A stretch of 64,000 bases of DNA from a bacterium (GTDB taxonomy: Bacteria > Bacillota_I > Bacilli_A > RFN20 > CAG-288): NCBI GenBank assembly GCA_963612025.1, contig CAVDUB010000001.1, positions 7,323 through 71,322 on the forward strand. Reading direction: 5' to 3'. How positions within the stretch are numbered: the first letter of the stretch is position 1; the number at the start of each line of letters is the position of its first letter. The position numbers and the translations under genes are program-made. The notes under the pieces are model-generated. The model did no database searches. It saw only the letters and a list, made by a program, of their open reading frames with translations, and was not told the DNA's origin. Of this stretch, positions 45,324 to 55,983 are shown piece after piece.

Positions 45324-47684
45324 CTATTTCAAATGAATGACGGTTGCACCAAGCCCGCCTTCCCCTTCATTTCCAAACTGATAGTCCTTGACGAATTCCT
45401 TATGGTTGGAAAGATATTTCCAAAGGGCGTTCTTCAGGGCAAAAGTTCCCGTCCCATGGATGATGCGCACACAGGAAAACTTGCGGATTCTTGCCGAATC
45501 GAGAAAAGAGACCACATTGCGCATGGCTTCGTCGACGTGTTGACCGATGATGTTGAGTTCAAGTCCCTGGGAGGAACCGATATTGAGAATCGTCTGATCG
45601 ATCAATGCCGTCGGCGTTTTCTTCACCTTAACGTCCGCAGCAGTGAGTTTTGCCCGGGTAAGCCCCTGAATTTTTCTTCGTATGCGAAGACCAGACATAT
45701 CAAGAAGAACCTCATTCTTTTTGACTTCCAGGACCTTTCCCTGTCTTTTGTCTTCATCAAGCAGGATGTCTCCGACCTTGACATCCTTGAGAACTTCATT
45801 TTTCCCTACCGGAGAAAGACTAGGTGTCTTTTCTTCCTTGATTTTGTTGAGCTGTCCCTTCTTCTGAGAGACATCCGAATAATTCAGAGAGGAATCCTTC
45901 TTATTCGATTCTTGTTTCCAGATGCGATTGATTTCCTCGATTCTTTCATCGACAAGACGGTTGATTTTGTTTTCAGCCTTCATCTTGATGGAATTTCTTT
46001 CCTCATTGAGGGCATCGATGGCTTTCTGTCTTTTTTCGGCGAGCTTCTCAAGGTCTTTTTTCGCATTTTCGAGTTCTCTTGCCTTCTTTTCATTCTCCAT
46101 CACCTGTTGGGTAAGTTTCTCCATCAAGGCATCAGTATCCTTGTTGCTTCTTTGATTCTGGAAAGCAACGGCATCCTTGAGAATCTCTTCATCAAGACCC
46201 ATCTGTCGAGCCAAAAGAATGCCATAGGATTTTCCGGTCGTATGGAGAAGAAGACGATACGTCGGCTTGAGCCCGCTCGTATTGAATTCCATGGCACCCG
46301 TGAGACACTTCTCATCATTTGCCGCATAAATCTTCAAGCCATCGAAATGGGATGTCAGCATCGTCAGGCATCCTTTTTTCTCAAAGAAGCGAAGAAGTCC
46401 AACACCAAGTGCTTCGCCATCCTTTGGAGAGGTTCCCTCACCGACTTCATCGATGATGACAAGAGAATTCTTTGTCGCGGATGTCGTGATGTTCTTGATG
46501 CCTAAAAGATGGCTTGAGAACGTCGAAAGATTATCCATCACCGACTGGTTGTCTCCGCCCAGGAAATAGACCTCATCGATATAGGGAATCTTGCATTCAT
46601 ACATGCAAGGTGCCATAAGGCCGAGTTTATCCATCATGACGGTTAGGGCACAAGCCTTGATGAAAATAGATTTTCCACCGGCGTTTGGTCCAGTGATAAG
46701 AAGAACTCGAGGATCTTTTCCTCCTAAGGAGATACTATTCTTAATGATATTTTTTGCCTTGAGAAGCGGATGGAAAAGTTCCTTCAATGAGAATTCATTC
46801 TCCGTCATCTGAGAGATGCATCCATTATAGGAATTTCCAAAGCGGACTGCCCCAAGATAGCGGTCAAAGTTCAGAATGATTTCATAGTCTCTTTTTAGAT
46901 ATTTTATCTGCTTGTAGGCCTTTAATGAGAGATCAGAGAGAACCTTCATCACCTCCGTGGCCTCTTCCTGGACAAGACTCGATTCCTTGTTTCTCAACTC
47001 CAAGGCTTCATAGGGAACCATGAAGACCGTTTCCCCTGTCGAGGAATAGGAAATCACGCTTCCTTTGACAAATCCCTTATCCGAGGTACGGACAGCAAGG
47101 ACTTCCTGATTATCTCTTAAGGCAATGCTATCGCTCGAAAGATAAGCGCTATAACGGTTCTTATACGAATTCATGATGTTCGAAAGCTGTCTTCGGATGC
47201 TTCGCAAGGAGCTTCTTAGATCGCGAAGCTTTACACTGGCATTATCCGAGACGGTGAGATCCGGTTCGATGCAGTTAAGAATGTCTCTTTTCAGCTGAAT
47301 CAGGGGATTGAGATCTAGGGCATCATCATTGAGATGGAAATACTGCTTCTTGTCATAGAGAAGATCATAGAGGCTTTCACTTGCCGAGAGAAGATCCGCG
47401 ATGGAATTCAGTTCTCCGCAAGAAAGAACAGACTGCTTCTCCAGAGAGAGAAAAATTGGTTCGAAATCAAGAAGAGATGGAATATTGATTTCATGTCCGT
47501 CGTGAAGAAGACGGGAAAATTCCTCCAAATATTCATGGGAAAGAAGGATATCATCCTTCGAGGCAGCCAGATATCCTTCACGGCTGAAGTTTTTCTTCAA
47601 TCCCTGAAGGGAAAAGAAGCCTTTCAGTTTTTCGATGACTTCGTCAACTTCATGATTCAAATAATTTTCTTCCATATTGTCCAT
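45324..47684 (-). CDS. mutS2: Endonuclease MutS2 (MutS ATPase plus C-terminal Smr domain)
   Basis: Walker A GPNAGGKS, a DE(V)G motif, a coiled-coil region, and a C-terminal Smr domain (LNIIGQHVDEA...RIIHGTGTFALK). Confidence 0.92.
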   Translation of the reverse strand: MDNMEENYLNHEVDEVIEKLKGFFSLQGLKKNFSREGYLAASKDDILLSHEYLEEFSRLLHDGHEINIPSLLDFEPIFLSLEKQSVLSCGELNSIADLLSASESLYDLLYDKKQYFHLNDDALDLNPLIQLKRDILNCIEPDLTVSDNASVKLRDLRSSLRSIRRQLSNIMNSYKNRYSAYLSSDSIALRDNQEVLAVRTSDKGFVKGSVISYSSTGETVFMVPYEALELRNKESSLVQEEATEVMKVLSDLSLKAYKQIKYLKRDYEIILNFDRYLGAVRFGNSYNGCISQMTENEFSLKELFHPLLKAKNIIKNSISLGGKDPRVLLITGPNAGGKSIFIKACALTVMMDKLGLMAPCMYECKIPYIDEVYFLGGDNQSVMDNLSTFSSHLLGIKNITTSATKNSLVIIDEVGEGTSPKDGEALGVGLLRFFEKKGCLTMLTSHFDGLKIYAANDEKCLTGAMEFNTSGLKPTYRLLLHTTGKSYGILLARQMGLDEEILKDAVAFQNQRSNKDTDALMEKLTQQVMENEKKARELENAKKDLEKLAEKRQKAIDALNEERNSIKMKAENKINRLVDERIEEINRIWKQESNKKDSSLNYSDVSQKKGQLNKIKEEKTPSLSPVGKNEVLKDVKVGDILLDEDKRQGKVLEVKKNEVLLDMSGLRIRRKIQGLTRAKLTAADVKVKKTPTALIDQTILNIGSSQGLELNIIGQHVDEAMRNVVSFLDSARIRKFSCVRIIHGTGTFALKNALWKYLSNHKEFVKDYQFGNEGEGGLGATVIHLK

Positions 47685-50784: not shown

Positions 50785-50948
50785 TTGAAGAGCTCCTTGG
50801 ATTCTGAACACGAAGAAATTATATCACGTATGAAAATGTTTCAAAGAAGCTTTTCGTCTTAGGAAGGGGTTTCAAGAATTCAGTAATAAGAATGAATGGA
50901 AAAACACCTGTTTTTTGAAAATATTTTCATAACATTGTGAAAACATTT

Positions 50949-52631
50949 TCATTCGTTCTCCTTGCTCAGTTCGTCCTTAAGGAAGGAGTAGACGATGCTT
51001 TCATAGGTTTCCTTGTTCATGTCGATGCCCAAAAGATAGATTTTATGGAATGAGAGATAGTCATCGATTTTTTCTTCCAAGGAAGGGAAAAGAACCATGA
51101 CTTTCCGAACGGCACCGACTCTTAAGCCTTCATCAGAAACAAAGCCGAATTGGAGATAGTCGCTTGCTGTCAGAAGAATATCCTTTTTCAAGTCCTGTTT
51201 TTCATCGAACTTGAAAATTGGAATATATTTGATTTCCAAGACTAAATCGAAGAGGAATGTCTTCTTTTCCATGTCATAGACTTCCATGATGAAATCAGGC
51301 GATCGATGATGAGAATTGATACTGACAGTGCAATCCTTTTCCTTATTCGAAAGAAAATCCTTGCAGAAAGGCCCATAGAGTACCTTGACCATTCTCTGCT
51401 CACTCTCGTAGACAAAAAAGGATTCATTTTCCTTTAGAGCAGAAGCCGAAAGAGATTGGCTCACTTTTTGATAGCCAAGTTCCATCAGAGCTGTATGGAT
51501 CAGATAATAGCCATAGAGTTCAAACAGTTCGCGTGCCGGCTTATAGGAAACTTTATCCTTGTCAGGAAAAATCTTCTTTTGCATATCACGGATTTCTTTT
51601 GCTGCCGGCGTATAAGACAAAAAGGATGGTGTCGAAATGAGAGTCACTTTTTTGATTCTTTCATCCTGTAAAAAAGAATCGCAGATGCGATGATATTTCA
51701 TCAGAATATCAGCCAAATCGGATAAAACTTTTCCCTCGCCTTGAAGTTCATTTCGCTTCTTTTGAAGAACAAGACTCTCCTCTGTAAGCCGAATATCCAT
51801 ATAAAGATGTTCTTCTCTTTGTTTCGACAAACGAGCATGTTCCACGTCACCATCTCTTTGCAAAAGCGAATTTTGCGTCTTTTTTTCCTTTAAGGAATTC
51901 AAGAGAAAAGAGACCCTTCTCTTAAAGGAATTCATCTGATACTTCAGAATACGATTTTCTTTCGAATCAAAAGAGAGACCTTTCTTCTTCGTCATCTTTT
52001 CTGAAAAAGGATGTGTGATATTTCTTCTGAAGGTCTTCAAGTCTTCTCTCCCAGCTGGGAAATAGCCATAAACCGTCACCACATCCTCTTTGAGACAGGA
52101 AATCATTCTTCTTTCCAGTTCCCTGAAGGAAGGGAGATTTTCTTCCAATCGATTGACTAAGAGAGGATAGGAATGCTCAAGGGAATCCACATCGCCTTCC
52201 CTTGAGAGTTCACGGGTGATATTCTGCAAAATCGATTCGAGTCTTGCAACGATGTTTCCAAATCCATCCTTACCCAAGACCGAATTATTCTTCACCTCAA
52301 AATAGAATGTCTTTTTGCACATGCTATTTTCATAGCAGAGACAATAGATTCCTGGAAGGTAATAATATTCACTTCCACCGGAAACAAGGTAAACGACATC
52401 ATTTGCCAGAGAGAAGATATCTTTTTCGATTGTGACTTTTTTGTTTTTCTTTTCATTTAACGCTTGATAGCATTGCATAGAAAAGCGACTGTTCCCATCC
52501 GTATGAAAAGAAACACGGAGATGGCAGGTATCAGTCATCGAAAAGAGGATTCTTTCTTTTTCCTTGCCAAGGTCAAAGCTTTTCGGTTCCTCTTTGTTGA
52601 TTATGACGAATAATTTATCGGACATAGCCAT
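50949..52631 (-). CDS. DUF2357/McrC-like PD-(D/E)XK nuclease (560 aa)
   Basis: ELFELYGYYLIH is followed by PD(446)...D(462)LVLE(466)IK(468), encoded at 51228..51296. It overlaps the upstream McrB-like gene by 17 nt. Confidence 0.75.
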   Translation of the reverse strand: MAMSDKLFVIINKEEPKSFDLGKEKERILFSMTDTCHLRVSFHTDGNSRFSMQCYQALNEKKNKKVTIEKDIFSLANDVVYLVSGGSEYYYLPGIYCLCYENSMCKKTFYFEVKNNSVLGKDGFGNIVARLESILQNITRELSREGDVDSLEHSYPLLVNRLEENLPSFRELERRMISCLKEDVVTVYGYFPAGREDLKTFRRNITHPFSEKMTKKKGLSFDSKENRILKYQMNSFKRRVSFLLNSLKEKKTQNSLLQRDGDVEHARLSKQREEHLYMDIRLTEESLVLQKKRNELQGEGKVLSDLADILMKYHRICDSFLQDERIKKVTLISTPSFLSYTPAAKEIRDMQKKIFPDKDKVSYKPARELFELYGYYLIHTALMELGYQKVSQSLSASALKENESFFVYESEQRMVKVLYGPFCKDFLSNKEKDCTVSINSHHRSPDFIMEVYDMEKKTFLFDLVLEIKYIPIFKFDEKQDLKKDILLTASDYLQFGFVSDEGLRVGAVRKVMVLFPSLEEKIDDYLSFHKIYLLGIDMNKETYESIVYSFLKDELSKENE

Positions 52632-54567
52632 ACCGCTTCAGTTCAAGTATTTTATTGGCAATTTCCTGCTTGGAAAGTTCAAACGAAGATATCTCGCTAT
52701 ATTTTTCAAGAAGATCATAGATTGGAGAGTGGATACTTCCATCTTCCATCCGACAGCCTAATACTTCGCCTAGAATCTCCTCGCTTCCGCGGATTCTTCT
52801 CAAAACCGTCTGACGGAAAACATAGTCAAAGGACTGTTTTGCGCTGATATCATCTATCGGACCATCCTCTTCCATTCTCGAATTGGCAAGATAGAGAGAG
52901 ATGTTGCGCACGGTTCTGAAAGAGATGCCTTTCTGCGGATCTTTTTCCGATAGAATCTTATTGAATTCATCGAAAAATTCTCGCATCGTTGGAGTCAAGA
53001 AGGAATTGAAGTTGAATGTCTTTGCCATCTTCGGCATCAAGGACATCAATTCCCCCTCATAAGTTTTTCCGGTTTCTTCCGCCTTATCGAGCATGACGCC
53101 ATTGTATTTGTCAAACGAAGCACGGCGAAGCGAAATCACAAACGAGCGGTCAAGCAGCCTTTCGGAAAGTTCTTTTGTCGTATCGTCAAGATTGATGGTG
53201 CCGACAAAAAGGACATTGTCTCCAATCGAGATGGAATCCGGATAGAGATTCTTATTTTTGCATTCCAGATTCTGATCATAGAGACGAAGAATACGACGAT
53301 CTTTTTCTCTTTCCAATATGGATAGGAAGGGAGCGAAATAATATTCTATCTGAGCAAGATTCATCTCATCGAAAATAACCATATGCATCTTCTCAGGATT
53401 TTCCGATGCATGCTTGAGAAAACTGACCAATCCGGTCTCGCTCGACATATAGTTTTCATTGGCCGGATTATAGAATCCGAGCATATCACTCGGCTCAGTG
53501 TAGCTCGGCGAAATCGGCACAAAGAGAAGCGTTCCATTTTCTTCGGTCATATTGAAATAGTTGGCATATTCCAAAGGAAGACGCGTCTTTCCCGTTCCAG
53601 ACATGCCAGCCAAAATCGTCAAAAGTCGGCATTTCAGACAGGCATGGAAATTCTTGACATCATCATCGAAATAGTAGAGATTCTTGCTTTTCAGATAGGA
53701 CTCAAATCCCAGCAGTGCTTTTCTTGTGTCAAATTCCTGCTCAGACGGATAGACTGTTTCCTCCATCTCATCCTGTTCATCATCTTGCCAAGGAAGAGAC
53801 TGCATTTTCCTCATGAGAGGAAGGCTTCCCTTTTCCAGGAAACAATATCCATTTTCATAGCGAAGAAATCCGCTATCGACAAAATCATCGATGTCGAATT
53901 CAAGGTCAAGATAATCGGTATCCTTCTTTTCCCATTGACAGTTGTAATCGGAATTCACGCTTGTCGTTAAAGGAGCAAGAATGAGATGATTTCCATAAAG
54001 AATATATTTTGGTTTTCCAAATAGACTCAAATTCCAGTTGGAAAGGGAAAAAGTCTTATGAGTCAAAAACAGTTTGAAATTTTGTTCATTGAGGGTCGGG
54101 ATGACAAAGAAGCATTCATTGGGGTATTGAAGCGGAAGCGTCAAGATATCCTTTGTGGAGTCGACGTTCTTATAGAAAAGATTCTTTCTCTCATCATATT
54201 TATAGTAAGGAGTGAAAAGGAGCATTTTTCCCTTCATTGCTTCGATGACGATATCCTCTTGCCTCTTCACATCCTCTTCGGATTCAGAACTATATCCATC
54301 CCATAAGCCAAGATAAGCCAAGAGGTTATCTCCGGTGACAGTGTAGCAGGATTTTCCATCGATCATCGCCCTTCCCCAGAAGAGTGATTCGTTTTCGAGA
54401 AGAATATCCGGTTCATCCGAAATCGGGAGAAGGGCGCATTGAAGATAGAAATGATTTTGGCTTTGCATCATGAAGGTTTTATAAAGAACAGCCAAAACGA
54501 CATGATCGGAAACTTCGCTGAATTTTTCGCTCAATCCACTATAATCTTTTTCCTGTTCCATCCTCAT
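52615..54567 (-). CDS. McrB-like AAA+ (AAA_5) GTPase with an unassigned ~320-aa N-terminal domain
   Basis: Walker A GMSGTGKT (53584..53607), Walker B MVIFDEMN, and a McrB-type GTINLDDTT..LLDR segment. Its ATGA overlaps the upstream gene. Confidence 0.8.
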   Translation of the reverse strand: MRMEQEKDYSGLSEKFSEVSDHVVLAVLYKTFMMQSQNHFYLQCALLPISDEPDILLENESLFWGRAMIDGKSCYTVTGDNLLAYLGLWDGYSSESEEDVKRQEDIVIEAMKGKMLLFTPYYKYDERKNLFYKNVDSTKDILTLPLQYPNECFFVIPTLNEQNFKLFLTHKTFSLSNWNLSLFGKPKYILYGNHLILAPLTTSVNSDYNCQWEKKDTDYLDLEFDIDDFVDSGFLRYENGYCFLEKGSLPLMRKMQSLPWQDDEQDEMEETVYPSEQEFDTRKALLGFESYLKSKNLYYFDDDVKNFHACLKCRLLTILAGMSGTGKTRLPLEYANYFNMTEENGTLLFVPISPSYTEPSDMLGFYNPANENYMSSETGLVSFLKHASENPEKMHMVIFDEMNLAQIEYYFAPFLSILEREKDRRILRLYDQNLECKNKNLYPDSISIGDNVLFVGTINLDDTTKELSERLLDRSFVISLRRASFDKYNGVMLDKAEETGKTYEGELMSLMPKMAKTFNFNSFLTPTMREFFDEFNKILSEKDPQKGISFRTVRNISLYLANSRMEEDGPIDDISAKQSFDYVFRQTVLRRIRGSEEILGEVLGCRMEDGSIHSPIYDLLEKYSEISSFELSKQEIANKILELKRYGYVR

Positions 54568-55487
54568 TCTCCCTTCTCAAGAAGGCCTAAAATCACATAA
54601 GCCTTCACAAGCAGATCCATTGAAAGGTCATAATGAGATTTTTTCAATTCATCAATCGCCAGTTGAAGAATTTCCAAAGCATTGCTTTGCTCAACCAAAA
54701 GCGTATTTTTATCAATATCAGCCACCTTTCTTTTCGAAAGGGTATTCAGTTTTTTCAGAATCGAAGATAACTTTTCCTCATTCTCTATGTTCTTCTTTTC
54801 AAATCCGTCACGTTCTTTTTTTAACTGCGAACAGGATTCCTTCAGAATAGAAAGATCTTCCTGGGATTTTTTGAGTTTGTTTTCCGATGTGTCATATTTT
54901 TTCTTCAGGTCATCGTAGTTCTTCTTATCTTCCTTGGCCTGCTTGCTGACAGCCTGATTGATTCTCGTCTCCACATCATCTTTCTTGGATATTTTCGGTA
55001 AAACAAATTTTGGCTTTTCCTCCTCCTTTGCTTCACCCTCAGCAGCATCCTCGTCAGGAAGCGGTTCTTCTTTTTCCAATTCAAAGCCAAAGGCTTTATA
55101 AAGAATCGCCTTATTTTCTCTCCGGCTATATTTCGTATCTTCATCGATAGCAGAATGAATCATCTCTATAGATGGATTCTGATAATTTTCTTTTCCGACA
55201 ATCGTCTTCAAAAGTTTCTCTTCGAATTGCTGATAATATCTCTCTGGGACATTCTCTTCCTTGGTAAAGAGATATACAAAGAAACTCTTTACAAAAGAGG
55301 AAGGCGGATTCTTTCTGTCTTTGTTATTCCACTCCTTCGATCCTTTTCCATAATGCTTTTTCCTTGTAGATTCATCTCCATAATAATCAATCAGAATGTT
55401 TTTTACTCTCTCAATGCTTGCAATCGTACATAATCTCTCAATTTCTTCTTCACTTAATGATGCTAAATTCTGTTTATTCAAGTACAT
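54564..55487 (-). CDS. Coiled-coil protein (about 307 aa), unknown function
   Basis: The C-terminal half is Lys/Glu-rich and heptad-like (KKNYDDLKKKYDTSENKLKKSQEDLSILKESCSQLKKERDGFEKKNIENEEKL). ATG 55487 is preferred over TTG 55496. It overlaps the upstream gene. Confidence 0.65.
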   Translation of the reverse strand: MYLNKQNLASLSEEEIERLCTIASIERVKNILIDYYGDESTRKKHYGKGSKEWNNKDRKNPPSSFVKSFFVYLFTKEENVPERYYQQFEEKLLKTIVGKENYQNPSIEMIHSAIDEDTKYSRRENKAILYKAFGFELEKEEPLPDEDAAEGEAKEEEKPKFVLPKISKKDDVETRINQAVSKQAKEDKKNYDDLKKKYDTSENKLKKSQEDLSILKESCSQLKKERDGFEKKNIENEEKLSSILKKLNTLSKRKVADIDKNTLLVEQSNALEILQLAIDELKKSHYDLSMDLLVKAYVILGLLEKGE

Positions 55488-55878
55488 TTTCCACAATCTC
55501 CTTTACCTTTTTCTGGAATTCATTCTTCAAGGATTCCACTTTTGTTTTCGTCGTTTTAATCTTTACTTCTTTTTTTCTTTCTACAAACTGTCTTTTTATC
55601 TGTAAGGAAAGTTCTTCCTTTGTCTTATCCAGCTTTTCCATATTGAAGTACACCCGATCAATCGGAACATATGTTTCGAAAAGATAGACTCGCAGTTCAT
55701 AAAGCCCGGATTTCGCTTCCGGCTGATAGACAACATCATTGATTTTATTTGGAAAAGATCTTGTCTCTTTTGTGTTTTTTCCTAAATTGACAATCTCAAA
55801 TCGATCGGTCGAGAAAAGAAACTGAATCTCTTTTGAGACGACAAGATTCTGCCCACTCTGCTGAAGATAATAGGCCAT
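55474..55878 (-). CDS. Small protein (134 aa), first gene of the McrBC-like operon, unknown function
   Basis: AGGAGG SD lies 7 nt before ATG 55878 (MAYYLQQSG...). The Lys-rich C-terminal helix has no recognised motif. Confidence 0.6.
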   Translation of the reverse strand: MAYYLQQSGQNLVVSKEIQFLFSTDRFEIVNLGKNTKETRSFPNKINDVVYQPEAKSGLYELRVYLFETYVPIDRVYFNMEKLDKTKEELSLQIKRQFVERKKEVKIKTTKTKVESLKNEFQKKVKEIVENVLE

Positions 55879-55905
55879 TTGTATACCTCCTTTTGATTTC
55901 TTTTT

Positions 55906-55911
55906 ATTATA
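55906..55911 (-). promoter_or_regulatory. Candidate -10 box (TATAAT) of the four-gene operon
   Basis: A minus-strand TATAAT lies 28 nt upstream of ATG 55878. No good -35 was seen. Confidence 0.35.
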
Positions 55912-55946: not shown

Positions 55947-55983
55947 AAAAAAAACCTAGGCCCTCCAAAAGGAAAGTCTAGGC
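55947..55983 (-). terminator. Terminator of the uxuB-like gene
   Basis: A minus-strand CCTAG...CTAGG hairpin is followed by T8. Confidence 0.55.

What the first reader, a model, noticed from the sequence alone, without database searches (positions are those of the whole stretch)
50949..55911. Translationally coupled four-gene operon: small protein, coiled-coil protein, McrB-like AAA+ GTPase and DUF2357/McrC-like nuclease (candidate defence system, non-canonical McrBC variant)
Seen in sequence:
- Four minus-strand ORFs have overlapping stops and starts: at 55474..55487, at the ATGA at 54564..54567, and at 52615..52631.
- The operon has its own TATAAT (55906..55911) and an AGGAGG SD.
- It is inserted between an unrelated aminotransferase gene and hexuronate genes. 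Upstream it is bracketed by the uxuB-like terminator.
- Gene 3 has Walker A GMSGTGKT (53584..53607), Walker B MVIFDEMN, and the McrB-type segment GTINLDDTTKELSERLLDR.
- Gene 4 has ELFELYGYYLIH followed by PD(446)...D(462)LVLE(466)IK(468), encoded at 51228..51296. This is the layout of McrC/DUF2357 PD-(D/E)XK nucleases.

Established knowledge: McrB-type GTPase plus McrC-type nuclease pairs are type IV, modification-dependent restriction modules. Coiled-coil-associated relatives (CoCoNuT-type) have been described.

Unusual here: two extra genes are coupled upstream. One encodes 134 aa. The other encodes about 307 aa with a long Lys/Glu coiled-coil half. The GTPase also has no recognisable DNA-reading N-domain.
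Basis: partly seen in the sequence, partly recalled or inferred. Interest (0 to 1): 0.75.

Follow-up and report, generated by a model that had tools for sequence, protein, structure and literature searches.

The report
Four-gene CoCoNuT-type McrBC-like operon
This is a real, tightly coupled four-gene operon from a family of McrBC-like candidate defence systems described by computation in 2024 (Type I-B "CoCoNuT"); it is a variant with a shortened coiled-coil protein and one extra small gene, so it is interesting but not a new kind of system.

Summary
Four minus-strand genes (134, 307, 648/650 and 560 aa) are coupled by overlaps and sit between hexuronate genes and an aminotransferase gene.

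Gene 3 is a McrB-like AAA+ GTPase and gene 4 is a DUF2357 + PD-(D/E)xK McrC-like nuclease. The GTPase motif is N-x-D followed by D or E (N459 and D461 in 80/80 relatives), which marks the NxD/CoCoNuT branch (Bell et al. 2024, eLife), not canonical NxxD McrB.

63 of 80 related loci in Bacillota have a same-strand gene directly upstream of the GTPase gene; those examined are coiled-coil proteins.

Two things differ here:
- This CnuA-like protein lacks the C-terminal REC-like domain.
- A small gene (gene 1) precedes it. It occurs in 20/27 loci with a short CnuA and 0/29 with a longer one (p = 1e-9).

The GTPase N-terminus models confidently and weakly resembles OB-fold binders of single-stranded nucleic acid. 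PADLOC has no model for the whole unit. No CoCoNuT has been tested experimentally.

Verdict: a new variant of a known, predicted kind, of moderate interest.

The parts
55961..55976 (-). Terminator-like hairpin with a T-run, ending the upstream adh_short (uxuB-like) gene
   Evidence: (6-bp stem, 3 GC pairs, T-run). It is a consensus match only; function was not shown.
55906..55911 (-). TATAAT -10-like hexamer. No good -35 and no TG extension.
   Evidence: Read from the sequence. Not listed by the promoter scan.
55886..55891 (-). AGGAGG Shine-Dalgarno sequence, 7 nt before the gene 1 ATG
55474..55878 (-). Gene 1: 134-aa protein with an N-terminal part that looks beta-rich (about 85 aa) and a Lys/Glu-rich C-terminal helix. 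It is an orphan family and the extra component relative to published Type I-B CoCoNuT.
   Evidence: called as a gene. No Pfam, PADLOC, NCBIfam or PHROG family. An exhaustive search finds only about 7 clusters of small proteins. Sequence homologues occur in 7 loci and positional analogues in 13 more.
54564..55487 (-). Gene 2: 307-aa CnuA-like protein. It has a conserved N-terminal domain (about 1-150, helical by inspection), a coiled coil (about 165-255) and a conserved C-terminal helical segment with invariant Y297. It has no REC-like domain.
   Evidence: family alignment A5. Only coiled-coil proteins match profile positions about 150-250. The REC-like HMM does not hit it.
54723..54995 (-). 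Approximate coiled-coil segment of gene 2 (residues about 165-255)
   Evidence: matches to keratin, Csm1, ZapB, the LmuB coiled coil and similar proteins. The boundaries are approximate.
52615..54567 (-). Gene 3: CnuB/McrB-like AAA+ GTPase (650 aa, or 648 aa from the ATG at 54561)
   Evidence: Pfam AAA_5 1.7e-7. NCBIfam McrB 5.8e-6. PADLOC PDC-M26A 1e-41, GTPase core only. AF2 pLDDT 85, and the top Foldseek hits are E. coli and T. gammatolerans McrB.
53794..54567 (-). Gene 3 N-terminal region (residues 1-258): two beta-rich domains, OB-fold-like. This is the putative nucleic-acid-binding specificity module.
   Evidence: AF2 on alignment A2 gives pLDDT 90.9. Foldseek hits are weak (best E 0.016) but consistently OB-fold proteins: Teb1, RPA70, editosome OB proteins, SSBs. 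No Pfam or PDB sequence match.
53584..53607 (-). Walker A GMSGTGKT (residues 321-328)
   Evidence: G321, G324, G326 and K327 are invariant in 80/80 relatives.
53365..53382 (-). Walker B MVIFDE (residues 396-401)
   Evidence: D400 in 78/80 and E401 in 80/80 relatives.
53182..53193 (-). N-L-D-D signature (residues 459-462): the NxD motif followed by an acidic residue
   Evidence: N459 in 80/80 and D461 in 80/80 relatives; position 462 is E in 75 and D in 5. This matches the definition in Bell et al..
50949..52631 (-). Gene 4: CnuC/McrC-like protein (560 aa). It has an N-terminal part of about 130 aa that looks beta-rich, a DUF2357 domain with a coiled-coil insert, and a PD-(D/E)xK nuclease.
   Evidence: Pfam DUF2357 5.5e-5 (23.0 bits against a cut-off of 23.3). 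Among 30 family members, DUF2357 matches 10 (best 2e-15) and PDDEXK_7 matches 8. It follows g3 in 77/80 loci.
51627..51929 (-). Approximate coiled-coil insert in the DUF2357 region of gene 4 (residues about 235-335)
   Evidence: The A4 profile matches only coiled-coil proteins (CFAP100, keratin, Rad50, tropomyosin) over profile positions about 220-340. The boundaries are approximate.
51228..51296 (-). Nuclease core P445-D446 ... E466-x-K468. The helix glutamate E371 lies at 51519-51521.
   Evidence: E371, P445, D446 and K468 are invariant in 30 relatives. E466 is conserved in 60-90% of 71 sequences.

Best explanation
What it is
The unit is a four-gene variant of the Type I-B CoCoNuT class of McrBC-like systems, which is a computationally predicted immune or abortive-infection module.

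What is shown
- Gene 3 is a McrB-fold AAA+ GTPase with the NxD-E/D signature and no fused coiled coil.
- Gene 4 is its McrC-type partner, with DUF2357 and an intact PD-(D/E)xK site.
- Gene 2 is a separate coiled-coil protein encoded directly upstream.
- Gene 1 is a small protein that co-occurs only with short, REC-less versions of gene 2.
- All four genes are translationally coupled and move as one cassette.

What is inferred, from solved McrBC structures and from Bell et al.
- The GTPase forms a hexamer.
- The DUF2357 stalk of gene 4 inserts into the ring and stimulates GTP hydrolysis.
- The OB-like N-terminal domains of the GTPase bind single-stranded nucleic acid. This is most likely RNA of an invading element or of the translation apparatus; ssDNA is possible.
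- GTP-driven translocation or stalling licenses cleavage by the PD-(D/E)xK nuclease.
- The coiled coil of gene 2 pairs with the coiled-coil insert of gene 4, or bridges two GTPase-nuclease complexes.
- Gene 1 docks onto gene 2 through its C-terminal helix. It would supply the regulatory or sensor input that the REC-like domain supplies in canonical CnuA.
For: GTPase (gene 3)
- McrB fold and motifs.
- NxD-E/D: N459 and D461 in 80/80 relatives, position 462 E or D in 80/80. This is the definition given in the paper. A Type I-A CnuB row in the paper's supplement shows the motif NMDETTHHLSPKVLDR; set beside NLDDTTKELSERLLDR of g3, the two line up without gaps.
- Only about 58 residues and one helix lie between Walker B and NxD. 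The large Type I-A insert is therefore absent, and the GTPase has no long coiled coil.

Nuclease (gene 4)
- It lies downstream of g3 in 77/80 loci. The five relatives checked show the same 17-nt overlap.
- Catalytic residues E371, D446 and K468 are invariant.
- DUF2357 and PDDEXK_7 match other family members.

Upstream proteins (genes 1 and 2)
- A same-strand gene sits directly upstream of g3 in 63/80 loci; those examined are coiled-coil proteins.
- The long versions in Clostridium and Bacillus relatives have a helical N-terminus, a coiled coil and a C-terminal alpha/beta domain. This matches the published PYD-CoCo-REC layout.
- In a neighbour-joining tree of the GTPase part, the window's clade is interleaved with those loci.
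- A small upstream ORF occurs in 20/27 short-CnuA loci and 0/29 longer ones, p = 1.1e-9.

Cassette behaviour and context
- The four-gene order and the overlaps are kept at 87-90%, 60% and 50% g3 identity. The 60% and 50% relatives lie in different flanking contexts.
- Relatives sit on plasmids: between two ISS1 copies near an Abi gene in one case, and next to an ABC-three-component system in another. Others lie near TIR or SNF2/ResIII genes.

N-terminal region of gene 3
- It models confidently, and every Foldseek hit of note is an OB-fold binder of single-stranded nucleic acid.
Against: - No CoCoNuT of any type has been tested experimentally; no experimental paper turned up.
- I could not obtain named Type I-B reference sequences, because that sheet of the supplement is truncated in the held copy. 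Membership therefore rests on architecture, the motif and co-clustering, not on placement in the published tree.
- Gene 2 shows no detectable sequence similarity to the long CnuA-like proteins beyond the coiled coil (hhalign E 0.2-0.5).
- Gene 2 lacks the REC-like domain.
- No YTH/EVE-like structure appears among the top 50 Foldseek hits for the GTPase N-terminus, and the OB hits are weak (best E 0.016, TM 0.2-0.4).
- In this window both flanks are housekeeping genes, not a defence island.
- The target (RNA or DNA) and the roles of genes 1 and 2 are inference only.
Confidence: 0.65

Rival explanations
1. It is a classical Type IV, modification-dependent DNA restriction system (a McrBC variant). 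The N-terminal domain of gene 3 reads modified DNA, the GTPase translocates along dsDNA, and gene 4 cuts it. Genes 1 and 2 are accessory.
For: The McrB fold and the McrC-type partner have an intact PD-(D/E)xK site. OB folds can also bind DNA; hits include RPA, SSB and HIN domains. Bell et al. also allow DNA targeting through McrC homologues.
Against: The signature motif is NxD-E/D, not NxxD. No known modified-base reader (ADAM/DUF3578, SRA, EVE, YTH) is detected by sequence or fold. The best fold matches bind single-stranded rather than duplex nucleic acid. A conserved coiled-coil partner is not part of canonical McrBC.
Confidence: 0.15
2. It is not an anti-phage system. [quoted passage not shown]
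For: The flanks in this window are housekeeping genes (uxuA, adh_short/uxuB-like, aminotransferase, RNase H, MutS2), and the context is identical in the 87-90% relatives. Some relatives sit next to RNase R, UvrA or DinB genes. The paper itself proposes a non-defence role for the closest sister group.
Against: The cassette occurs in unrelated contexts at 50-60% identity. Its GC content is below that of its flanks (0.35-0.42 against 0.43-0.50). Relatives are plasmid-borne, flanked by IS elements and adjacent to Abi, TIR, SNF2 or ABC-three-component genes. This patchy, mobile distribution is typical of defence genes.
Confidence: 0.12
3. Only the pair of genes 3 and 4 is the functional unit. Genes 1 and 2 are unrelated neighbours, and gene 1 may be a spurious ORF.
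For: Gene 1 has no family assignment and a very small family. Its homology to the small ORFs of more distant loci is not statistically established. A Bacillus clade lacks any upstream coiled-coil gene.
Against: Gene 1 is conserved as protein at 27-87% identity. Independent gene callers call it. It overlaps gene 2 by 14 nt in 6 of the 7 loci where its sequence is detectable, and in the window. A small ORF co-occurs with short CnuA in 20/27 loci against 0/29, p = 1e-9. An upstream same-strand gene is present in 63/80 loci. By a rough estimate of mine, a chance open frame of more than 100 codons has p of about 1e-3 per frame in such AT-rich DNA.
Confidence: 0.05

Closest known systems
Type I-B CoCoNuT (CnuA-CnuB-CnuC), Bell, Sahakyan, Makarova, Wolf & Koonin, eLife 2024 (PMC11090510)
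   Same: - NxD-E/D McrB-like GTPase with no fused coiled coil and with beta-rich, OB-like N-terminal domains.
- McrC-like partner with DUF2357 and an active PD-(D/E)xK site, plus an extra N-terminal region.
- A separate coiled-coil protein encoded immediately upstream.
- Bacillota host range.
- Operon order A-B-C with overlapping reading frames.
   Different: - The CnuA-like protein is short (307 aa) and lacks the C-terminal REC-like domain.
- Its sequence is not detectably related to the long CnuA-like proteins outside the coiled coil.
- A fourth, small gene precedes it. The paper's text does not mention such a gene.
- No YTH-like fold was detected in the GTPase N-terminus.
- A coiled-coil insert is present in gene 4. 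The published Type I-B CnuC label is IG-McrC_N-PD-DxK, with no coiled coil.
Type I-A and Type I-C CoCoNuT (same paper)
   Same: NxD GTPase, OB/CSD-like N-terminal domain, and McrC-like partner. Type I-A CnuC also carries coiled-coil inserts in DUF2357.
   Different: In I-A and I-C the coiled coil is fused to CnuB and there is no separate CnuA. I-A has a large helical insert between Walker B and NxD (about 125 residues in the Rhizobium example, by my count), against about 58 here.
Canonical McrBC (E. coli K-12; T. gammatolerans), PDB 6HZ4, 6UT6, 6UT3-7
   Same: AAA+ GTPase fold; these are the top structural matches. Walker A and B motifs. A DUF2357 + PD-(D/E)xK partner is encoded downstream with overlapping frames.
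   Different: McrBC has an NxxD signature, an N-terminal reader of modified DNA (ADAM/DUF3578 in E. coli), no coiled-coil partner and only two genes.
PADLOC candidate system PDC-M26 (PADLOC-DB v2.0.0)
   Same: Gene 3 matches model PDC-M26A at 1e-41, as do distant relatives.
   Different: The match covers only the GTPase core (profile positions 279-444 of 724). No PADLOC model other than PDC-M26A gives more than a weak match (E >= 6e-4) to genes 1, 2 or 4, or to their counterparts in three of the four related loci scanned; in the fourth only the upstream and McrC-like genes were scanned.
LlaJI-type four-gene R-M operons of lactococcal plasmids (two methyltransferases + McrB-like R1 + McrC-like R2). 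This comparison is from my own knowledge.
   Same: A four-gene operon in Bacillota that ends in a McrB-like/McrC-like pair.
   Different: The two upstream genes here are not methyltransferases; they have no Pfam family at all.

Membership tests
McrBC-like systems (broad sense) | [quoted passage not shown] | tested here: met
   Pfam AAA_5. NCBIfam McrB, weak. The AF2 model's best PDB matches are 6HZ4, 6UT6 and 6UT3 McrB. The motifs are invariant in 80 relatives.
McrBC-like systems (broad sense) | Adjacent McrC-type partner: DUF2357 domain plus PD-(D/E)xK nuclease | tested here: met
   DUF2357 5.5e-5, just under the gathering score. In 30 relatives, DUF2357 matches 10 (best 2e-15) and PDDEXK_7 matches 8. 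E371, D446 and K468 are invariant. It lies downstream of g3 in 77/80 loci.
Canonical McrBC (Type IV modification-dependent restriction) | NxxD GTPase signature | tested here: not met
   The invariant aspartate is at N+2 (D461, 80/80). N+3 is E in 75 and D in 5 relatives. By the paper's definition this is the NxD variant.
Canonical McrBC (Type IV modification-dependent restriction) | N-terminal modified-DNA reader domain (e.g. ADAM/DUF3578) | tested here: not met
   No Pfam or NCBIfam domain in residues 1-300. The profile search against PDB sequences found nothing. The fold search returned only weak OB-fold matches.
CoCoNuT / NxD branch (Bell et al. 2024) | Strictly conserved NxD motif, usually followed by E or D | tested here: met
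   The motif lines up without gaps with the Type I-A motif NMDETT in the paper's supplement.
CoCoNuT / NxD branch (Bell et al. 2024) | Extensive coiled coils in or associated with the McrB/McrC homologues | tested here: met
   Gene 2 residues about 165-255 and gene 4 residues about 235-335 match only coiled-coil proteins.
Type I-B CoCoNuT | [quoted passage not shown] | tested here: met
   Gene order. The AF2 model of gene 3 has no long helix N-terminal to the AAA+ core. An upstream same-strand gene is present in 63/80 relatives.
Type I-B CoCoNuT | REC-like domain at the C-terminus of CnuA | tested here: not met
   An HMM of the C-terminal alpha/beta domain of 22 long CnuA-like proteins hits 27 upstream proteins, but not gene 2, gene 1 or any short-CnuA relative that has the small upstream ORF. 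Its one hit shorter than 300 aa (L031, 265 aa) looks like half of a split long gene. Only about 50 helical residues follow the coiled coil in gene 2.
Type I-B CoCoNuT | PYD/CARD-like helical domain at the N-terminus of CnuA | not tested
Type I-B CoCoNuT | CSD-like OB fold at the N-terminus of CnuB | tested here: inconclusive
   The model is confident (pLDDT 90.9). All notable Foldseek hits are OB-fold binders of single-stranded nucleic acid, but they are weak (best E 0.016, probability at most 0.8, TM 0.2-0.43).
Type I-B CoCoNuT | [quoted passage not shown] | tested here: not met
Type I-B CoCoNuT | Ig-like beta-sandwich at the N-terminus of CnuC | not tested
   Residues 1-130 of gene 4 have no family match and look beta-rich by eye. 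No structure was predicted.
Type I-B CoCoNuT | GTPase-domain phylogeny places it with Type I-B | tested here: inconclusive
   In a neighbour-joining tree of 80 sequences (79 relatives plus the window), the window's clade is interleaved with clades whose upstream protein has the helical-CoCo-alpha/beta (PYD-CoCo-REC-like) layout, and with a Bacillus clade lacking CnuA (Pseudo-I-B-like). Named reference sequences were not retrievable.
Type I-A CoCoNuT | Helical insert between Walker B and NxD; coiled coil fused to CnuB | tested here: not met
   There are 58 residues and one helix between D400 and N459, and no fused coiled coil. By my count the Rhizobium Type I-A example has about 125 residues there.
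PADLOC PDC-M26 | All components match the PDC-M26 models over their full length | tested here: not met
   Only PDC-M26A matches, and only over profile positions 279-444 of 724. Genes 1, 2 and 4 have no PDC-M26 match.

The most novel reading that the evidence does not exclude
Gene 1 and the REC-less coiled-coil protein (gene 2) together form a two-protein input or regulatory module that has not been described. It would replace the REC-type C-terminal domain of canonical CnuA. That would define a distinct four-gene CoCoNuT subtype, found mainly in metagenome-assembled genomes labelled Erysipelotrichaceae, Acholeplasmatales or Bacilli (about 20 of the 80 loci sampled). In this reading the small protein senses the trigger, such as a phage protein or nucleic acid, and releases the GTPase-nuclease.
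Probability: 0.4. Interest if true: 0.5.

Novelty: new variant of a known kind. Interest (0 to 1): 0.4.

Why it matters
CoCoNuTs are a large branch of McrBC-like systems known only from prediction. Whether they protect cells, whether they cut RNA or DNA, and what the coiled-coil partner does are all open questions.

This locus is a compact cassette of about 5 kb and four genes, with an intact nuclease and a confidently modelled specificity domain. That makes it a convenient test case.

The mutually exclusive pattern is a clear comparative clue to how the system is regulated: a small protein plus a short CnuA in some loci, and a CnuA with a REC-like domain in others (20/27 against 0/29). It suggests specific deletion and swap experiments.

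It also shows that current defence-finder models (PADLOC-DB v2) miss this family apart from a partial hit on the GTPase core.

Tried and rejected
1. Named Type I-B reference sequences (GED20858.1, GED20857.1, TKH01449.1). I looked in the paper's supplement and the preprint's. The Type I-B sheet is truncated in the held copy, so no direct comparison or tree placement was possible.
2. Names or accessions for cluster members. None were on record.
3. Hypothesis that genes 1 and 2 are a split canonical CnuA. Rejected as unsupported.
   - hhalign of the g1 and g2 families against 23-27 long CnuA-like proteins (whole length, N-terminal and C-terminal parts) gave only coiled-coil or non-significant alignments (E 0.2-0.9).
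   - The REC-like HMM does not hit gene 1.
4. Gene 1 as a duplicate of the gene 4 N-terminal domain or of the gene 3 N-terminus. Not supported (E 0.1-0.6).
5. Extending the gene 1 family by jackhmmer over all 4,352 ORFs of the 80 loci. It stalled at 7 members. Within the set of small upstream ORFs alone there are only marginal links. Homology of the distant small ORFs therefore remains positional.
6. Apparent gene 1 matches to cadherin- and C2-repeat proteins. I judged these non-specific.
7. Profile searches against PDB sequences for the gene 4, gene 2 and gene 3 N-terminal families. They found only coiled-coil noise or nothing.
8. Empty-site search through an exact look-up of the uxuB-like protein. 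It is not on record.
9. Flanking direct repeats as insertion scars. None found.
10. PHROGs. Nothing informative.

Full report
**1. The observation**

| Gene | Coordinates | Length |
|---|---|---|
| g1 | 55474-55878 | 134 aa |
| g2 | 54564-55487 | 307 aa |
| g3 | 52615-54567 | 650 aa |
| g4 | 50949-52631 | 560 aa |

- The same locus is on record in assembly GCA_963649095.1, with independent gene calls of 134, 307, 648 and 560 aa.
- The g1/g2 overlap is 14 nt and the g3/g4 overlap is 17 nt.
- At the g2/g3 junction the ATGA exists. However, a second ATG six bases downstream (54561) has the better Shine-Dalgarno spacing and is the start the gene caller used. The junction is either a 4-nt overlap or a 2-nt gap.
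- TATAAT (55911-55906) and AGGAGG (55891-55886) are present.
- The -35 element is poor and the consensus scan does not list the site. That scan finds no more promoter-like sites in the region than in shuffled sequence.
- A terminator-like hairpin with a T-run follows the upstream short-chain dehydrogenase gene.
- The flanks are UxuA and an adh_short (uxuB-like) gene on one side. On the other side are an aminotransferase gene, then RNase H and MutS2 genes.
- The cassette has lower GC content (0.35-0.42) than its flanks (0.43-0.50).

**2. The GTPase and the nuclease**

Gene 3:
- It matches AAA_5, McrB weakly, and the PADLOC candidate model PDC-M26A at 1e-41. That match covers only the GTPase core.
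- An AlphaFold2 model built on 43 homologues has mean pLDDT 85. Its best PDB matches are the McrB AAA+ domains of E. coli and Thermococcus gammatolerans.

Gene 4:
- It scores just under the Pfam threshold for DUF2357.
- Of 30 family members scanned, 10 match DUF2357 (best 2e-15) and 8 match PDDEXK_7.
- E371, P445, D446 and K468 are invariant, so the nuclease looks active.
- The family profile also picks up only coiled-coil proteins over its middle part. This indicates a coiled-coil insert in the DUF2357 region.

**3. Which branch of the McrB family**

Bell et al. (eLife 2024, PMC11090510) split McrB-like GTPases by the signature motif:
- Canonical systems have NxxD.
- A large branch, which includes the coiled-coil nuclease tandems (CoCoNuTs), has a strictly conserved NxD, usually followed by E or D.

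In an alignment of gene 3 with 79 relatives, N459 and D461 are invariant. Position 462 is E in 75 sequences and D in 5.

A Type I-A CnuB in the paper's supplement reads NMDETTHHLSPKVLDR. Gene 3 reads NLDDTTKELSERLLDR, and the two line up without gaps. Gene 3 is therefore an NxD-type GTPase.

Two features set it apart from the other Type I subtypes:
- It lacks the large helical insert of Type I-A. Only 58 residues and one helix lie between Walker B and NxD.
- It lacks the fused coiled coil of Types I-A and I-C.

**4. The 'extra' coiled-coil gene is the known CnuA position**

The paper defines Type I-B CoCoNuT by a separate coiled-coil protein, CnuA, encoded with CnuB and CnuC. The GTPase itself has no fused coiled coil, and the type occurs mostly in Bacillota.

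A scan of one genome per species with the g3 profile returned 275 relatives. The 80 best loci carry almost only Bacillota names: Erysipelotrichaceae, Acholeplasmatales, Clostridium, Bacillus, Sporosarcina, Paenibacillus and others. A few carry Bacteroidota or Treponema bin labels that I suspect are binning errors.

In those 80 loci:
- A g4 homologue follows g3 in 77.
- A same-strand gene lies directly upstream of g3 in 63. Those examined give only coiled-coil noise against Pfam and PDB.
- In the Clostridium and Bacillus-type loci this protein is 410-500 aa. It has a long helical N-terminal part, a coiled coil and a C-terminal alpha/beta domain of about 110 residues.
- A Bacillus/Gottfriedia clade has no upstream coiled-coil gene. 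It resembles the paper's 'Pseudo-Type I-B'.

**5. What differs in this locus**

Gene 2 and its full-length relatives (alignment A5) share four features:
- a conserved N-terminal domain;
- a coiled coil;
- a short conserved C-terminal helical segment with invariant Y297;
- no alpha/beta domain.

The HMM of the REC-like domain hits 27 upstream proteins. It hits none of gene 2, gene 1 or the relatives with the short-CnuA-plus-small-ORF layout.

Beyond the coiled coil, gene 2 shows no significant profile-profile similarity to the long CnuA-like proteins.

Gene 1 has no family in Pfam, NCBIfam, PADLOC or PHROGs. An exhaustive HMMER search of 1.84 billion representative proteins finds only about seven clusters of small proteins.

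Its sequence is recognisable in seven of the 80 loci. In 13 more loci a same-strand ORF of 100-175 aa, overlapping or abutting, occupies the same position. These ORFs have a similar layout and a similar C-terminal helix, D-x-F-x-x-x-[VI]-K-[ED].

Part of that motif is encoded by the AAGGAG Shine-Dalgarno sequence of gene 2, so some of its conservation may be at the nucleotide level.

| Upstream coiled-coil protein | Loci | With small ORF |
|---|---|---|
| Short (under 340 aa) | 27 | 20 |
| Longer (340 aa or more) | 29 | 0 |

Fisher p = 1.1e-9.

In a neighbour-joining tree of the GTPase part, the four-gene layout fills two clades. These are interleaved with the REC-type clades.

**6. The four genes travel together**

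- Relatives at 87-90% g3 identity share this window's context.
- Relatives at about 50% (L003-L007) keep the order and the 14/4/17-nt overlaps in a different context.
- A 60% relative has 132 + 305 + 649 + 558 aa with 14/1/17-nt overlaps, next to unrelated genes.
- The 17-nt g3/g4 overlap persists in five relatives checked, down to 33-37% identity.

**7. The GTPase N-terminus**

Residues 1-258 are conserved across the family (alignment A2). Modelled alone they give pLDDT 90.9, as two beta-rich domains.

Foldseek against the PDB gives no strong match; the best E-value is 0.016. Nearly all leading hits are OB-fold binders of single-stranded nucleic acid:
- Teb1 and RPA70 tandem OB domains;
- trypanosome editosome OB proteins;
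- bacterial and human SSBs;
- Stn1.

A few hits are HIN-domain dsDNA sensors, which also have tandem OB folds.

No YTH or EVE structure is in the top 50. This agrees weakly with the 'CSD-like OB fold' of Type I CnuB. It does not reproduce the 'often present' YTH-like domain.

**8. Defence context**

- In this window the flanks are housekeeping genes.
- Neighbours of relatives are mixed. Some are defence-like: a TIR-domain protein, SNF2/ResIII helicases and SMC-like ATPases. Others are not: RNase R, UvrA and DinB.
- Three-gene relatives occur on plasmids.
  - In Lactococcus lactis p275A the cassette lies between two ISS1 copies, near a putative abortive-infection gene.
  - On a Priestia megaterium plasmid it sits next to an ABC-three-component system.
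- PADLOC-DB v2 has no model for the coiled-coil or McrC-like components of this family.

**9. Mechanism**

Shown: folds, motifs, gene order, coupling and co-occurrence.

Inferred from solved McrBC structures and from Bell et al.:
- Gene 3 forms a hexameric GTPase, activated by the DUF2357 stalk of gene 4.
- The OB-like N-domains capture single-stranded nucleic acid.
- The PD-(D/E)xK domain cleaves it.
- The coiled coil of gene 2 pairs with the insert in gene 4 or bridges two complexes.
- Gene 1 docks on gene 2 and stands in for the REC-type input.

I put 0.65 on the overall identification. I put much less, about 0.3-0.4, on RNA rather than DNA as the target.

**10. Verdict**

- It belongs to a family that was already described, but only computationally.
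- The loss of the REC-like domain together with a mutually exclusive small upstream gene is a variant that the paper's text does not describe.
- No experimental study of any CoCoNuT was found.

Noticed in passing
window 50826-50841 and 50941-50956: A 16-nt inverted repeat (94% complementary, 99 nt apart). It brackets the whole intergenic region between the gene 4 stop codon and the -10 region of the aminotransferase gene. It could form a long-range hairpin in read-through transcripts, or be a remnant of the cassette boundary.
   Followed up: no
window 55487-55520 (g1 C-terminus / g2 start): The Shine-Dalgarno sequence of gene 2 (AAGGAG) is encoded by the K-E codons of the conserved C-terminal helix motif of gene 1. 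Part of the apparent protein conservation there may reflect this translational signal.
   Followed up: partly
L082 (Lactococcus lactis plasmid p275A, NZ_CP016699.1 61704-66555): A three-gene relative (347-aa hypothetical protein, 664-aa AAA ATPase, 608-aa nuclease-domain protein) lies between two identical ISS1 (IS6-family) transposase genes, like a composite transposon. It sits a few kb from a gene annotated as a putative phage abortive-infection protein.
   Followed up: partly
L052 (Paenibacillus sp. N3.4): Two GTPase/McrC-like pairs sit in tandem on one strand (675 + 621 aa, then 752 aa and a 359-aa g4-like ORF). This looks like a duplicated or double system.
   Followed up: no
L033, L035, L048, L050, L053, L064: These relatives have g3 homologues of 744-886 aa. 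None has the usual coiled-coil gene directly upstream, although L050 and L064 have other same-strand ORFs there. The coiled coil may be fused to the GTPase, giving a Type I-C-like layout.
   Followed up: no
L001, L005, L018, L064, L071 (record titles): Contigs carrying this Bacillota-type cassette sit in metagenome bins named Bacteroides uniformis, Alistipes, Bacteroidales or Sodaliphilus. L001 has the same uxuB/aminotransferase flanks as the window. These are probably binning errors rather than transfer to Bacteroidota.
   Followed up: no
window 47677-47684: By the mechanical ORF list, the MutS2-like gene (minus strand, 45324-47684) and the RNase HIII-like gene (plus strand, from a TTG at 47677) overlap head-to-head by 8 nt. 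The gene caller places the RNase H gene start further in, so this is probably an artefact of start-codon choice.
   Followed up: no
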